Source: Flaccisagitta enflata (Eukaryota). Taken from it: a stretch of DNA of 64,000 bases. Shown in pieces: positions 55,864-64,000 of the stretch (the first letter of the stretch is position 1; each line of letters opens with the position of its first letter). A model generated the notes under the pieces. That model saw only the letters and a program-made list of their open reading frames with translations, did not search any database and was not told where the DNA came from. The DNA lies in the NCBI GenBank assembly GCA_965153355.1, contig OZ231126.1, positions 1,612,001-1,676,000 of the forward strand. The letters are read 5' to 3'. The position numbers and the translations under genes are program-made.

Positions 55864-57794
55864 ATTTTTACTCTGAAATTTTCGTGGAATTCACCATCAT
55901 TGTAATTTTTGTATATCATCAATTCATCATTGTGAATTGTTGTTTTATTGTTTTAAAAATGTCTAAGAAACAAGTCCAAGAAACAAAGTGTGTGTTTATT
56001 CATGTACTGATTATACCATTTATTATCTTCTACTGTGTAAGAAAAAAAGAAACCCTAAGCATAAAATCCAACTGCTATATAATAACATATTGTACTTCTT
56101 TTTCATTGCCATCTATATGGAACTGTATTAGTGTCACTAAAAGATTAAAACATGAATAAAAGTGTAAGCAACAATAAATTCTGCATTACATTCTGCATTA
56201 TGTTCACACAAAGTTCTTTTAGCTAGTTCCTTATATGATTCCTAGTTATGTAGAATTATTCTATTATTATTTGGCAGCACAAAAAAAAAATCAATTGGTG
56301 CAGTGTCTCTTTTTTCAGTAGTAATTATGGACAATCATGCAAAAGATATATTTTTTTCCCAAAAAAGCATGCAATTCTTCATTTACACTTTTTCAAAAGC
56401 TAAAAAATGAAATTTTTTATTTGCGAACTTACAGCAACCTGCTGCAGTAAAAAGAAGTTGCTGTAATGTCTATTTTTAGTTTATTTTTGCTAGAAGTATC
56501 ATAAAATCATCTCATTTTGTCTTTCTACTGAGAAAAAAATGATTGTTTTACAAAAAATCCTCAATCGCAAAATTTCATCAAAGTTGCTGCAATATGCGGC
56601 AATTTGCGGCAACATTTTTCATTTTTGAGCCTGGTAACCCTTCTGGATGGAAAGAGCATGTAAAAATGTACCAGAATCCCAAGTTTCATATAGTTTGCCA
56701 GATTTGAAGCCTCTACATGAAAAATGTCATCAACCCAGTGTACCACTAGGAGTAGGAGGAGAGAGAAATATACAAAGAAAGGGCTAGAAAGGGTGACAAA
56801 TCTCGGGAGTGCATCGGAATCCGATATCTTATCTTTTTTATTCCCTTTCTTTTTTCTTTGTAATATTTCATTGAAGGTAAGGGATGATATCTTCATCGAC
56901 GTCAGGCTGAGAAAAATAGTAATTCTGATTTTTTTTTTTTTTTTTTTTTTACTTTTTTGAAAATGGTTGTATGAGATATCACCTCTACCACAAGCACCAC
57001 GTCCAGTTGTTGGAAAAAAAAGTCGAATTACGTATTCGACTTTTTGAAACGTGGAGGAGAAATCAGGTTTTCCATTTTCGATTTTAAGCATGTGTGGAAG
57101 TTGAACCATTTTCTGCCTGGGATTTAATAATTATAGCTATGAAAGAGCTAATTTTCAGTCGCGGACACGCGACTCTACACCTTGCCGTGTCGGTCGGTCG
57201 GTCGGTATGTCGGTCCGTACGTCCGTCACATTTTTTAATTCCGAGCGGTTTCCGCATTACTGCTCCTGCCCAACCGTCCGCGACTGGATTGCCGTGTATC
57301 CGGTCTGTTTTCTCATATGGCACCAACCAGAAGTCTGTACGGTTAAAATGTTTCGGGTTGAGATATTTCGAATCTTTTTTTATATTTTCGAATTTTTTTG
57401 GTCGGTTACATTAGTCGAGAAGGGCGATTTTGTTTCAATGACTTAGTGCTTGTGTTGCCTCAAAAGAGCTGACAATTATGGCATTTTCTCCGGTTGATTT
57501 GTTTCTATTCAGTGGCTCTTTGGAAAGGTTTGAAGTGGATGTTTGCTTATCATACAAGGATAGAATGATGTAAGGATGTCAGGATAGTTGTGAAGGGCCC
57601 GGATGAAACACCGGTTAGAGCTCCCAAGGCTCATGTCTTTTCTCTAGTTGTTGGTTTAGTAGTAATGATGTCCGACTTTCAAACATTACTGCCTCCGCTT
57701 ACGGCCTCAGCCGCTTACCCGCACGCGTCTAAGGTGCTCCTGCTCCTGTCCTGTTTCCTATTCAGGAGTGTTCAATGACAAGTGTGGACATCTC

Positions 57795-58100
57795 TTATTT
57801 TTCCTTGTCCAGACGCGGGCACGATGTTAAACGGTTTGCCAGATTACCTTCACACTCTTAACTCTTTGCTTGTTCAGGCGCGGGAACAATGTCCAACGGT
57901 TTGTCATATTACCTTTACACTCATTGCTTGTTCAGGTGCGGGAACGATGTCCAACGGTGTGTCATATTACCTTTACACTCTTTGCCTGTTCAGGTGCGGG
58001 AACGATGTCCAACAATTTGTCATATTACCTTTACACTCTTTGCCTGTTCAGGTGCAGGAACGATGTCCAACGGTTTGTCAGATTACCTTCACTCTCATCG
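57795..58100 (+). repeat. 58-bp tandem repeat made of the exon's splice acceptor plus its first ~45 nt (5 copies)
   Basis: AG ends at 57812, 57877, 57935, 57993 and 58051 (spacings 65, 58, 58, 58), each followed by a copy of GTGCRGGAACGATGTCCAACGGTTTGTCA. Confidence 0.9.
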
Positions 58101-58212
58101 CTATGGCAACGCGGAGACGAAAGATTTGTGGGCGGCGTTGACCAAAGCCACGCTCATCTACGGAGGCAAAAGAATCGACGTCGGCGCCATCATGGACACC
58201 TGGACGAAACAG
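58052..58212 (+). CDS. Internal exon (161 nt, phase 1 to phase 0) of an M1-family aminopeptidase (aminopeptidase N / glutamyl aminopeptidase / ERAP-like)
   Basis: ttcag acceptor ends at 58051 and CAG|GTGGGG donor starts at 58213. Translation (G)AGTMSNGLSDYLHSHRYGNAETKDLWAALTKATLIYGGKRIDVGAIMDTWTKQ matches the M1 pattern GLxxYLxxHxYxNAxxxDLW...IMDTWTxQ. Confidence 0.88.
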
Positions 58213-58700
58213 GTGGGGGATGGAATGAGATAAGATGAGCTAACAGTGGACGAAACAGGTGGGGGCTTGGATGAGATGAGCTAACAGTGGATGAAACAGG
58301 TGGGGGCTTGGATGGGATGAGTTAACAGTGGATGAAACAGGTGGGGGCTCGGATGAGATGAGCTAACAGTGGATGAAACAGGTGGGGGCTTGGATGGGAT
58401 GAGTTAACAGTGGACGAAACATGTGGGGGCTGGGATGAGATGAACTAATGAGTGGTGACATCATGGACACCCGAACGAAACAGGTGCGGGCTTGGATGAG
58501 ATATGCTAACAATCAGTAGATGGAATAAATGAGATGAACTAGTGAAAGTGGTGACATCATGGACACTTGGACGAAACTGGTGGGGGCTGGGATGAGATAT
58601 GCTAACAATCAGTGGATGGAATAGATGAGATGAGCTAGTGAGAGTGGTGACTTCATGGATACCTGCATACAACTTGTGGGGGCTTGGATAAGATGAGGTA
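58201..58700 (+). repeat. 41-bp then ~96-bp tandem repeats containing the exon end and splice donor
   Basis: TGGAYGAAACAG|GTGGGG-like copies with GT at 58213, 58259, 58300, 58341, 58382 and 58423; longer units containing CATCATGGACAC-like sequence with GT at 58484, 58580 and 58676. Confidence 0.88.
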
Positions 58701-60225
58701 ACGGAGGGTGGCATGAGGATATTTTGATGAAACAGATGAGGGAACAGGAAGTGCTGGGTGCTCGGATGAGATAGGCTGTTGAAGGGTAACTTGAGGAATA
58801 CTTGGACAAATCAGAGGAGGAATCGAGAAATGGCGAGAGCTTGAAGTAAGCTAATTCATGCCTGTAATTAGCCAATCAATGATTTGAATACTTGGGCGGA
58901 TAAGGAATACGGGAAAACAGAAATGACGACAAATGGAATTCTTGGACGCGTAACGAGTAAAAAATGAGATAGGTTGGGAAACGTATTGGTGAGTGCATTA
59001 GTGAAACTAGTAAAAACGCTTGGGTGGTGTAGACTGGAAGGCGCGTCAGTGGGTGTTTGGATGAAACAATTACGACATCTAGCAGGGGACTGGGGACACC
59101 AAGACGTAACAACTAACAAGTAAGAAAACTCATTTGGGATGCCTGAATGAAAGTTAGGCTTCACGTGGAAGCCGTATTGGTGAGAATTATCTATAGGCAT
59201 GGATGTAGAAGAAAGGCCCTGATGTTGGACTGAGAAGCCTGTCGGGCTCATTTTCAAGAGATAAATTCGAAAAAAGATTAAGGAAAAGAACAGGAAAAAC
59301 ATGAGGATGTACAAAAACTGGAAGAGAAAACATTATTTATGCACCTTTCTTTGGGTAAACATAAGATTTGAATAGAAAAACCATTATAAAAACTGTTGGA
59401 CTGAAGGCCTAACGCATCTTGCTCTCCTACAATCATGTCTATAAGTCGTGTGAGGAACACTTGAATGAGACGGGTGAAGAAACACTTTGGATGAAACAAG
59501 TCCCAGATCAAAAACGGAACATTTGGTTGAAAGTGGCTAGAAGAAACACAATTGGAATTTGGGAACTTGGATGAAACTAGTTAAAGGACTGAAGGCCTGT
59601 TTATACACGTGACAATCTCGTTGAAAAAGGGCCGCTTGCTCACTCGCTACACTCGCCCGCTTCCACCACTTACTTCGCTCATTCACTCCACAGCGCTCCG
59701 CTCATTCAAATCGAATGATTCGATCGTCCAGAAGCTCGCTCACTAATTTCGCTCACTCCCTCTTGGGACGGTTGAAATCCAAATGTGTTCGCGCTGAAAA
59801 CGAGATTGGAGACCAAAGTAGCGATAATTGTCGTCACTAGAAACACACCCAGAGAAGGATCACTCAGATTAGAATGGATAGAAAATACTTTTTATGACAG
59901 ACGCGAATTATTAATACCGACACGCGACATTCATATCCGTAATCTGTCATTCATGTGCAGCATATCCAACATTAAATATTGTCCATACAATGAATAGATT
60001 TTCGATGCATAAATCAAATCAGCCTTTTTGCCTCTGGCCTTCCCTTGTCGATATTCATTTGTATTTTGTGCAGTTGCTGTCTGATATTTTCCATTTCCTT
60101 TTTCATTCCTTTCGTTATTTTCCATCTCTCTTCATCTGTTTGTAAATCCCTCTATCTGTCCATTTGTCTCAGTTCACTGTCTGTCTCTGTTTCAGTCTTT
60201 GTACCTATCTTCGTACTTTATAATC

Positions 60226-60394
<169 letters not shown>

Positions 60395-60466
60395 TTTTTT
60401 TTTCTCTCCCCCCCCACACACACCTACACACATACAAACAAACACCATCTCTTCCCAATAATCCAG

Positions 60467-60640
60467 GGCGGTTATCCACTTGTGACGGTGAAAAAGAACG
60501 GAAATCTTTTGACAATTAGTCAAGAGAGATTTCTAATCACTGCCAGTCACGAATCCATGCCGAAATCTCCCATCACGGGCACGAAAGATTACCTTTGGCA
60601 AATCCCGATTCACTACGTCACCAGCGATAATACTTCTCAG
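60467..60640 (+). CDS. Next exon (174 nt, phase 0 to phase 0) of the same M1 aminopeptidase
   Basis: atccag acceptor and CAG|GTGAGT donor. Translation GGYPLVTVKKNGNLLTISQERFLITASHESMPKSPITGTKDYLWQIPIHYVTSDNTSQ joins in phase to give WTKQ-GGYPLVTV...SQERFL...YLWQIPI, typical of M1 aminopeptidases. Confidence 0.9.
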
Positions 60641-60759
60641 GTGAGTCACTACATCAGTAGTTATACTACCTCTGATATTACCTCTTTAGCAAGCAATCAA
60701 TACAGCTATCAGCCTATCAGTAGTTAAGTCTTAACGGTGCCATTCAGTTGATTGACCTG

Positions 60760-60920
60760 TTTTTAGTTGCGGACACGCAACTCTACAAGAGGCTTTGTCC
60801 GTCCGTCCGTCCGTCCGTTGGTTGGTCGGTCCGTAACCATCGAGTCGAAAAGTGAGAAAACGCGCATTTCCGCCCCTGCCCACCCGTCCGCAACTGATGG
60901 CCGTGTATCCGGCCTTGTTT
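60760..60920 (+). mobile_element. DINE-1/HINE-like non-autonomous Helentron-type element (intact reference copy)
   Basis: T-run, subTIR AGTTGCGGAC (60765) with adjacent partial inverted repeat CGCAACT, (GTCC)n, 3' subTIR GTCCGCAACT (60886), hairpin GGCCG-tgtatc-CGGCC, then TTGTT. Confidence 0.8.
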
Positions 60921-61149
60921 GTTACATTACCAACCATGACATAAAAGGTACATTTTGGCACAGGTTAGATAACTGCAAACCATGAATTCAAAACAAAACA
61001 ATGGATAATCTTCACAACAACAATGACTTTAAAAACATTGGAACGACAGACTGCGAAGCGTTACTCGATGTTTTTGTTGTTGTTGTTGACTTGTTATTGT
61101 TGTTGCTGTTGTCCTTCTCCTTTGATTTTCATTACCCAGCGCTACAAAC

Positions 61150-61207
<58 letters not shown>

Positions 61208-62904
61208 ACCCACATTCCGGAAAAAAAGAACAGCCGGGACGAAATTGCCTTAGAGAGACCGGGAATTTGCTAATATCACGAAACTAAAACGATGGTGCGG
61301 GGCCTTCATCTTTCTAATCCTTCCCTCTTGCGCTTAGCTGTCTCCCCTCTCCTTCCACGTTTCTGTCACCACCGCCAAAGCCTCGTTAATTCGTGACCTG
61401 GTTGACCCCACTGCCTCAAACGATTTTAGTTGCAAGCGCAAGATTCCTCAAGTCAAACTTGTCGATGGTCCGGAGGGTCCGTCCGTCCGTCCATTCGTCC
61501 TTTTCTTCGAGATGGTTTCTGCGTCACTAATCGCATTGGACATGGGCAGTGCAATGTTCTTGCCTTGTTTTATCCTTAATCCCACAGAATATCTTTTTTT
61601 TCCTTTGACTTGTCGCCTGCTGACGAAGATGGAGGGGAAGAAGGGGGAGGAGGAGTGGTACGTTTCTTCAAGCACTGTAATACTTGGATATCACTACTTG
61701 TCAGCCTTTTTTCTTTTGATACATGATGTACTGAGCCTAAAATACAAATTTCAACATCTTAGCTTGATACAACCCTTCGCCGAAATCCATTCATCTATCA
61801 CTACTCCAAGGTGGTTATTGTGAAAGTGTTGAAATTTGGTCACTTTGGGCTCAAAATCGGGCCACTTTAGATTTGAAATTTGACCCCAAATCCATGAGAT
61901 TATGAAACTAGAGCTCAAGAGCTAACTAGTGGTGCAATCCGCATGTTGCTATCGTTTTTTGTTCAGATTTGAGAGCTTTTCAAAGATGGAAGGGTGTGAG
62001 GGTTATTTTACCAGATGAATTTGGTGGTCAATTTTGACATTTTTTACAATTTTTGATATATCTCCGCTTTGGATAGACAAAGTTAGATGAAATTGGTGAC
62101 CAAATTTGAATCTGGTGACCAAATTTGAATCTGGTAAAATTTTTGATCAATATGACCCTCAAAATTTTTGGGAGACTCTAGAAGCAGGTGCTAAAAAGTG
62201 AATTTTTTTGCCATGTTGGCTACTTTGGTCAATATATTCAGGCACTTCCGAGATACTATCTAGAACATATGTATATCGACAGGCATTTTAAGCAATAACT
62301 CTGTTAAGAATAGAAAATTTATAAAAAAATCAGTGAGATTCTGAAACTATTTCGAATTTCTGACCAAATGCCGCAAACCGCATCCTTTTAGCTCAAGGCG
62401 TTTAGAATTGACAGGCAAAACAAGATTGATACCTCAATTAGAAAATGGCCAAAAAAATGCATCTAGTTTCTTTACAAGTTACTAAGTCTCCTTTCAGATA
62501 GATTGGAGGCTTTTTCCACCCTATTTTTGGTTCTAATTACAGCGCCCAACACCTTTGTTACATTATCTTGGTTGATTTCAACCTCTCTGAATCATTGGGA
62601 TTGCAACTGAAGCAAAAAAGAGAACATGGCATACACTAAGGAATTTTTTTAAATAAAATTTTATGAGCGATAGTTATCATGCATTTATATAAAGCATTTG
62701 TGTTAAAGTGCTTAGAAAATCCACAAACAAATATGTGTTGAAACCCAAAGACGTATTATTGGGGTGTTTCATAGAGGGCTCATGGTCGAATTTGGGGCTG
62801 GCTGTGAAATCACAGTTGGGGTGTAGTTAGATGAAGTCCCTAAGCTCTTTTGTTGGCTTCCCGGAGGCTCCCACGAGTTACTCGGCCTCTGTACAGGTGG
62901 CATA

Positions 62905-64000
62905 AAAGGCCAAAAATGGCCAAAAATGACAAAAAAGCTTCAAAATTCAAATTTTTTGGGTAATTTGATAAGAAAAACCAAAACTTCTTCCTAGTTTACT
63001 CAGTTATAACCTATGGAATTGGGCTATGCTGAAAAACGACCAGCGAAAGCCATGGGGGGCCTCTAAGGACCCCAAAATGACCAAAAAAAGGGCCAAAACT
63101 GACTCATTTTAGGGAAAATCAAAAAATAATGAAAAATAATGAATTTTTTTTTATCAAATTATCGATTTATGCAAAGATATAGTCTCAGTGAAGTACAGGA
63201 GACTAGAAACAGCAAAAAATTCCGACCCTCATTGTTGTATCAGGCCAAAAACAGGTCAAATATAGCCAAAGTTGGCTTAAAATGACAAAAAAGCTTCAAA
63301 ATTCAAATTTTTGGGTTAATTTGATTAGAAAAACCAAAACTTCTCTCTAGTTCACTCATTTACAACTCAAAGATGTGGCCGATGCTTAATAACGGCCAGT
63401 GGATGCCATAGTGGGGCCTCTAAGGACCCCAAAATGACCAAAAAAGGGCCAAAATGACTCATTTTAGGCCAAGTTAAAATATTAAGAAAAATTATGAAAT
63501 TTTTTATCAAAACATCAATTTATGCAAAGATATAGTCTCAGTGAAGTACTAGAGACTAGAATCAGCATAAAAATTTGACCCTTATAGCCGTATTAGGCCA
63601 AAAACAGGTCAAAAACAGCCGTAATTGGCTCAAAAAGATCAAAATGCAGTTTAAAGAGGATTTTTTCATTAATTTCATCAAATTCATCATACTCATGCTT
63701 CAGTTTTGAATGAGCATAAGTTAAAGTGGGAATTCATGGCCAGATTGGGACACTCCAGGCCATTTTAGGCTCTGAAGGCCCTAAAAAAGGTCATAAACAG
63801 GCCCAAATGGGCTCTTCTGCTTCAAAATTCAAATTTCTGCTTTTGTTTCATCAAAGAGATGAACATTTCTATCAAAATCACTTGGTTTGATATTTAAAAT
63901 GAAAGCTAGGCTCAAATATGAGCAGTGGATACCATCAGGGGCCTCTAAAGACCCCAAAAATGGCCAAGAAAAGCCCTGATATGACTAATTTAAGACTTTA
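62905..64000. repeat. ~357-bp tandem duplication inside an AT-rich, probably transposon-derived segment
   Basis: aaatgacaaaaaagcttcaaaattcaaatt at about 62924 and 63281; ggggcctctaa(g/a)gaccccaaaa at about 63056, 63413 and 63939. Confidence 0.75.

What the first reader, a model, noticed from the sequence alone, without database searches (positions are those of the whole stretch)
57795..58700. A coding exon whose two splice junctions are each tandemly amplified
Seen: the aminopeptidase exon 58052-58212 has four extra copies of its acceptor junction upstream (58-bp unit) and eight extra donor-like copies downstream (41-bp and 96-bp units). The two arrays are unrelated in sequence, and each unit straddles an intron/exon boundary. 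Inference: amplification at both boundaries of one exon is unusual. It places many near-identical competing splice sites around the exon, which could tune productive splicing (for example via NMD), or point to a junction-focused duplication mechanism.
Basis: partly seen in the sequence, partly recalled or inferred. Interest (0 to 1): 0.8.

Follow-up and report, generated by a model that had tools for sequence, protein, structure and literature searches.

The report
Repeated splice junctions around aminopeptidase exon
Both edges of one exon in a marine animal's aminopeptidase gene have been copied several times into the neighbouring introns, and the copy number differs between gene versions, but short local duplications are as common elsewhere in this genome, so this looks like a tidy case of a known oddity rather than a new splicing device.

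Summary
The arrays are real: 4 extra acceptor copies and 8 extra GT copies flank exon 58052-58212. Read-derived contigs carry window-identical pieces of both.

The exon belongs to an M1 aminopeptidase gene on contig C8, not to the window's locus. Window 56746 onward is a second version of that gene, split from its upstream exons inside a transposon. It is probably the other allele, misjoined here: exons differ by 9 synonymous and 2 non-synonymous changes, depth is about 1:1, and a second sample lacks it.

The C8 version has 2 extra acceptors and at least 14 extra donors, so these are variable-number repeats.

Exon ends are not enriched for local duplications: 3 and 4 of 104, against 57 and 65 of 2058 controls. 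Other exons show them, two at both ends.

Best reading: tolerated tandem duplications, with the innermost sites used, as in human F7 and CBS. Splice use is untested: no RNA read covered the exon. This scan noted similar arrays in other genomes.

The parts
56594..56745 (.). Right end of a terminal-inverted-repeat transposon. Its left end lies at C8:36828291, directly after the upstream half of gene version B. A 3-bp target duplication (CTA) follows at 56746-56748. This is where version B is joined to C1 sequence.
56746..61647 (+). Segment of aminopeptidase gene version B, colinear with C8:36719956-36713509 (minus strand) at 83-94% identity
57798..58094 (+). Acceptor array: about 15 nt of intron end plus 43 nt of exon start per unit. 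AG ends at 57812 (most decayed, continuous with unique intron, probably the ancestral site), 57877, 57935, 57993 and 58051 (real).
58052..58212 (+). Coding exon, C-terminal end of the Peptidase_M1 domain
58187..58780 (+). Donor array of 41-, 61- and 96-bp units. Real GT at 58213; extra GT at 58259, 58300, 58341, 58382, 58423, 58484, 58580 and 58676.
58231..58233 (+). In-frame TAA in the first intron unit; it would be included by use of any later donor
60467..60640 (+). Next aminopeptidase exon; joins in frame to exon 58052-58212

Best explanation
Two independent tandem duplications happened to straddle the two junctions of one exon and then grew and shrank like ordinary minisatellites. They survive because the spliceosome can still use the innermost pair (last AG, first GT) and so removes every extra unit with the introns; duplications lying wholly inside exons are purged. 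The exon's own first 43 nt carry a branch-point-like motif, which lands about 22 nt before each new AG and may be why the last acceptor works. The window holds one allele (B) of a gene whose other allele (A) is on C8; B was probably joined to C1 through a transposon during assembly. Shown: the arrays, their variation between versions, the background rate, the split point and exon conservation. Inferred: which sites are used, neutrality, the branch point, and misjoin rather than true rearrangement.
For: Same detector: 3 and 4 of 104 exon-sized matches against 57 and 65 of 2058 controls. 12 of 347 match ends against 368 of 6295 control tests, with exon interiors at 3 of 307. 3 of 220 inferred splice sites against 186 of 7496. 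The host gene region is duplication-rich: 219 of 1623 positions. Two other donors of this gene are duplicated, and two kinesin exons are duplicated at both ends. Copy number differs between versions: acceptors 4 against 2, donors 8 against at least 14; sample X2 shows skips of 45, 47, 96 and 333 nt and lacks depth over part of the acceptor array. Outer copies decay while the innermost pair keeps an intact frame in both versions. Human precedents use the innermost copy (PMC1557585; PMC2630376).
Against: No RNA evidence for which sites are used. The junction sample is small and comes from four protein families with approximate boundaries, so an enrichment of up to about twofold is not excluded. 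Within this gene, 2 of 20 other junctions are duplicated against a 3.3% background (p = 0.14; a 21st junction, also negative, was not counted). A plain first-AG scanning rule predicts the outermost acceptor, which has the longest pyrimidine tract. All 4 exon differences between A and B fall in the duplicated 67 of 161 nt (p about 0.03, post hoc).
Confidence: 0.72

Rival explanations
1. The arrays act as an allele-dependent splicing dial. Outer sites are used part of the time and give stop-containing messages, or, in version B only, an in-frame 58-residue insertion from the AG at 57877.
For: Five of 8 extra donors keep CAG/GT. The real donor of B has the same first six intron bases as four of them. 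All later donors bring in the stop at 58231. The -174 acceptor leaves an open frame and has a TTAAC motif 20 nt upstream. A review passage links CBS 31-bp repeat number to lower enzyme activity (PMC5188458).
Against: The in-frame option is absent from version A, where the extra acceptors add 59 and 124 nt; a 58-nt unit taken three times is in frame by arithmetic. F7 pseudo-donors stay silent. Array structure is not conserved between versions.
Confidence: 0.15
2. A junction-directed mutational process, for example repair or replication trouble at splice sites, duplicates exon edges preferentially in this genome.
For: 4 of 23 junctions examined in this gene are duplicated, counting this exon. 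Two further both-ended exons were seen among 179 matches.
Against: No enrichment in three versions of the test. Both-sided duplication also clusters in control segments: 24 of 4927 against about 9 expected, so regional rate variation explains the co-occurrence.
Confidence: 0.06
3. The window segment is a real, transposon-mediated translocated or duplicated piece on C1 (a two-exon orphan), so its arrays are under no splicing constraint.
For: No assembly gap at the transposon join. Sequence after the transposon's left end on C8 matches C1 1.727-1.735 Mb at 82-98%, as an exchange between chromosomes could give.
Against: Exons differ by 9 synonymous and 2 non-synonymous changes in 711 nt while introns are mostly 85-95% alike. 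X1 splits about 1:1 at 25 listed sites and X2 has none of the window letters there. X2's exon is a mosaic of A and B states. B-like sequence ends at a gap. Genome-wide depth was not available.
Confidence: 0.2

Closest known systems
Human F7 intron-7 37-bp VNTR (PMC1557585; abstract and Discussion read)
   Same: The first unit spans the exon/intron boundary; there are 5-9 near-identical donors, variable in number; only the most upstream donor is used.
   Different: Donor side only. Here the units are mixed (41, 61, 96 bp), the acceptor of the same exon is also repeated, and use is untested.
Human CBS c.844_845ins68 (PMC2630376; passages read)
   Same: [quoted passage not shown]
   Different: One extra copy, not four. 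The paper's wording is 'splice donor'; that the junction is an acceptor is my reading.
Human CBS 31-bp VNTR c.1444_1467+7(16_21) at exon 13/intron 13 (PMC2630376 and PMC5188458; passages)
   Same: Donor-spanning repeat of variable number; the same gene also has an acceptor duplication.
   Different: In CBS the two duplications are at different exons. A link to activity is reported there and untested here.
Variable internal tandem repeats at exon-intron boundaries in human duplicated genes (PMC2812944; passages)
   Same: Repeat number at boundaries differs between gene copies.
   Different: Those cases often create new introns or alternative transcripts; none is shown here.

Membership tests
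Splice-junction-spanning VNTR (F7/CBS type) | Repeat unit includes the real splice junction | tested here: met
Splice-junction-spanning VNTR (F7/CBS type) | Head-to-tail copies extend into the intron and keep AG or GT | tested here: met
   4 of 4 extra acceptors keep AG; 8 of 9 extra donor units keep GT
Splice-junction-spanning VNTR (F7/CBS type) | Copy number varies between alleles or individuals | tested here: met
   A against B and X1 against X2; that A and B are alleles is inferred
Splice-junction-spanning VNTR (F7/CBS type) | The innermost site is the one used | tested here: inconclusive
   0 reads on the exon in 1824 million letters of X8
M1 (aminopeptidase N / ERAP-like) metallopeptidase | HEXXH-x18-E zinc motif and GAMEN motif | tested here: met
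   present in exons on C8, not in the window
M1 (aminopeptidase N / ERAP-like) metallopeptidase | Peptidase_M1 followed by the ERAP1_C domain | tested here: met
M1 (aminopeptidase N / ERAP-like) metallopeptidase | Complete colinear, expressed gene | tested here: inconclusive
   The GAMEN exon was found only in the inverted B block; exons 5' of C8:36850671 were not fetched; no RNA reads
Junction-targeted duplication process | Enrichment at splice sites over matched non-exon positions | tested here: not met

The most novel reading that the evidence does not exclude
One exon carries polymorphic decoy arrays at both ends, and repeat number sets the splicing outcome allele by allele. Version B can add a 58-residue triple repeat to the catalytic domain through its -174 acceptor, version A cannot, and unequal exchange between arrays feeds changes back into the exon edges. 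This would be a natural allelic series for testing how last-AG and first-GT choice are coupled across an exon.
Probability: 0.12. Interest if true: 0.6.

Novelty: new member of a known kind. Interest (0 to 1): 0.27.

Why it matters
If the best reading holds, it adds an invertebrate case to the F7/CBS pattern and gives a rough rate: about 1-4% of exon ends sampled here carry a duplicated edge. Such genomes therefore offer many natural tests of splice-site choice, including on the acceptor side, where simple scanning predicts the wrong site. It is also a warning about this assembly: the window joins an allele-like piece of a C8 gene to C1, so the exon would be mis-annotated as an orphan or a paralog.

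Tried and rejected
RNA test: raw poly(A) run X8, about 6% read, gave 10 reads, all partial matches to a dispersed repeat at 57604-57639 and none on the exon. This says nothing about splice use.

The word-index protein search found no relative; the HMMER search found 104.

Assembly stutter was rejected. A dead pseudo-exon was disfavoured by the synonymous excess (the two HEXXH differences were printed as non-synonymous through a frame slip in my script and are synonymous in the right frame).

Detector limits: the strict test missed four or five cases seen, probably because of low-complexity intron sides, a decayed intron side or mis-set boundaries. One of the 12 hits (L033) is an AT-rich array, not an exon edge. 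Many myosin and kinase match ends are not exon ends, which dilutes the junction rate; controls may hold unannotated exons.

A second batch of gene spans (kinesin and myosin) could not be fetched, so the sample stayed at 179 matches.

Seven paper searches listed no paper on arrays at both ends of one exon. That is weak evidence, since most subscription papers are not held. No supplements were opened. PMC10078293 (passages) had nothing on duplicated junctions.

Full report
Observation. The window holds a 161-nt exon at 58052-58212 whose 53-aa product matches Peptidase_M1 (E 7.9e-07, over the cut-off) and ERAP1-type structures. Upstream lie four extra copies of its acceptor junction (AG ending 57812, 57877, 57935, 57993), each about 15 nt of intron plus 43 nt of exon and 46-52 of 58 nt identical to the real junction. 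Downstream lie eight extra GT-bearing copies in 41-, 61- and 96-bp units, five with CAG/GT, and a ninth without GT.

Where the exon belongs. The exon occurs twice in the genome: here and at C8:36718556-36718716. Around the C8 copy (version A) tblastn with 13 relatives finds a minus-strand series of 12 M1 exons over about 200 kb, whereas 254 kb of C1 around the window hold only this exon and the next one at 60467-60640. An inverted block at C8:36.772-36.828 Mb carries the GAMEN exon and second copies of three exons. Its similarity to A stops at A position 36719954, and the window's similarity starts at 36719956. At that point version B has a transposon with terminal inverted repeats and a 3-bp target duplication: the left end is on C8, the right end at window 56594-56745. 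B-like sequence resumes after a 7-kb insertion and ends at a 10-N gap at C1:1680870. So the window from 56746 is the continuation of version B.

Allele or paralog. Five exon pairs differ at 11 of 711 nt, 9 synonymous and 2 not (with the HEXXH frame corrected by hand), while intron blocks are mostly 85-95% alike. In DNA run X1, 25 listed sites split about half and half between window and other letters (for example 75 of 158, 88 of 157). In X2 all 25 show only the other letter, and X2's exon piece differs from the window at one site only, a mosaic of A and B states (40 rows shown, 111 not shown). This fits two alleles of one locus, with B misjoined to C1. A real rearrangement is not excluded: there is no gap at the join, sequence beyond the transposon's left end matches C1 1.727-1.735 Mb, and genome-wide depth is unknown. 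X1 may be the assembly's own source.

The arrays vary. Version A has 2 extra acceptors (59 and 124 nt upstream) and at least 14 extra GT copies, with an insertion of about 600 nt inside the donor array. X1 contigs match window pieces 57644-57989 and 58622-58814 exactly. X2 has depth 0.9 over 57964-58057 against 36-82 on either side and shows skips of 45, 47, 96 and 333 nt in the donor array. The outermost acceptor copy is the most decayed in both versions and joins unique intron; I infer it is the ancestral site and that function moved to the last copy. A TTTAC motif from exon-derived sequence lies 22 nt before the last three AGs and may serve as branch point; this is inference.

What mis-splicing would do. 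Any later donor includes an in-frame stop at 58231 in B, and A has a stop at the same codon. In B the acceptors at -58, -116 and -239 shift the frame and -174 adds 58 residues with no stop; in A both extra acceptors shift the frame. The RNA run gave no read on the exon, so actual use is unknown.

Is it special? I searched 24-mers for a near copy (at most 5 mismatches, within 400 nt, low-complexity words removed) at exon-match ends from the M1, myosin, kinase and kinesin searches. Match ends: 7 of 175 and 5 of 172; other positions 183 of 3143 and 185 of 3152; match interiors 1 of 154 and 2 of 153. Inferred splice sites: 3 of 220, against 186 of 7496 terminal-unit controls. Best matched, requiring a unique middle: 3 and 4 of 104 against 57 and 65 of 2058. 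Both ends duplicated: kinesin exons at C1:354921 and C1:28343910, and 22 of 4925 control segments once this exon's two hits are removed. In the aminopeptidase gene two other donors are duplicated, in a region where 219 of 1623 positions have a local copy. So exon interiors are depleted and exon edges sit at about background, which is what survivorship predicts. The sample is small and boundaries are approximate, so a twofold excess is not excluded.

Mechanism. Most likely (0.72) these are ordinary tandem duplications, expanded by slippage or unequal exchange and tolerated because the last AG and first GT still define the same exon. Less likely is an allele-dependent splicing dial (0.15) or a junction-directed process (0.06). 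Separately, there is about 0.2 that the window copy is a true orphan on C1.

Known relatives. F7 intron 7 has a 37-bp VNTR spanning the donor, with only the first site used (PMC1557585; abstract and Discussion read). [quoted passage not shown] Boundary repeats vary between human paralogs (PMC2812944; passages). Seven searches listed no paper on both ends of one exon, which is weak evidence. Earlier notes of this scan describe acceptor or donor arrays in other genomes (unchecked).

Verdict. A real and clean example of a known kind, doubled on one exon about as often as the genome's duplication rate allows. Interest 0.27.

Noticed in passing
G000:C8:36772000-36828300 (L047-L052): Inverted second copy of three aminopeptidase exons plus the only GAMEN exon found, with no gap. 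As assembled, neither version is a complete colinear gene.
   Followed up: partly
G000:C8:36850560 and C8:36710095 (L062, L010): Two other donors of the same gene are duplicated into the next intron: three decayed copies at the first and one copy at the second.
   Followed up: yes
L186 (C1:354921-355079) and L155 (C1:28343910-28344146): Kinesin exons with decayed copies of both their start (upstream) and their end (downstream).
   Followed up: partly
L174 (C4:85635204, 96-bp units), L138, L022, L175, L181: Further junction-spanning duplications in kinesin, kinase and M1 genes, including a multi-unit acceptor array in L138.
   Followed up: partly
window 61659-64000, continuing to C1:1680607: 7-kb insertion in version B with long inverted repeats (about 600 and 1200 nt, 88-90% alike) and an apparent 8-bp target duplication; foldback-like element.
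   Followed up: partly
window 58056, 58071, 58093, 58200: All 4 A/B exon differences lie in the duplicated exon edges (p about 0.03, post hoc).
   Followed up: partly
genome-wide tables: Many gene pairs with equal or near-equal scores 30-260 kb apart, often inverted (for example C7:34172284 and 34223817; C4:85380452 and 85631716), suggesting retained haplotype copies in this assembly.
   Followed up: no
window 60647-60675: Short decayed echo of the next exon's end just after its donor, seen by eye; not detected by the strict test on the C8 copy.
   Followed up: partly
L014 (C7:38643042-38644415): M1 peptidase with a 554-aa uninterrupted frame, unlike the intron-rich family members.
   Followed up: no
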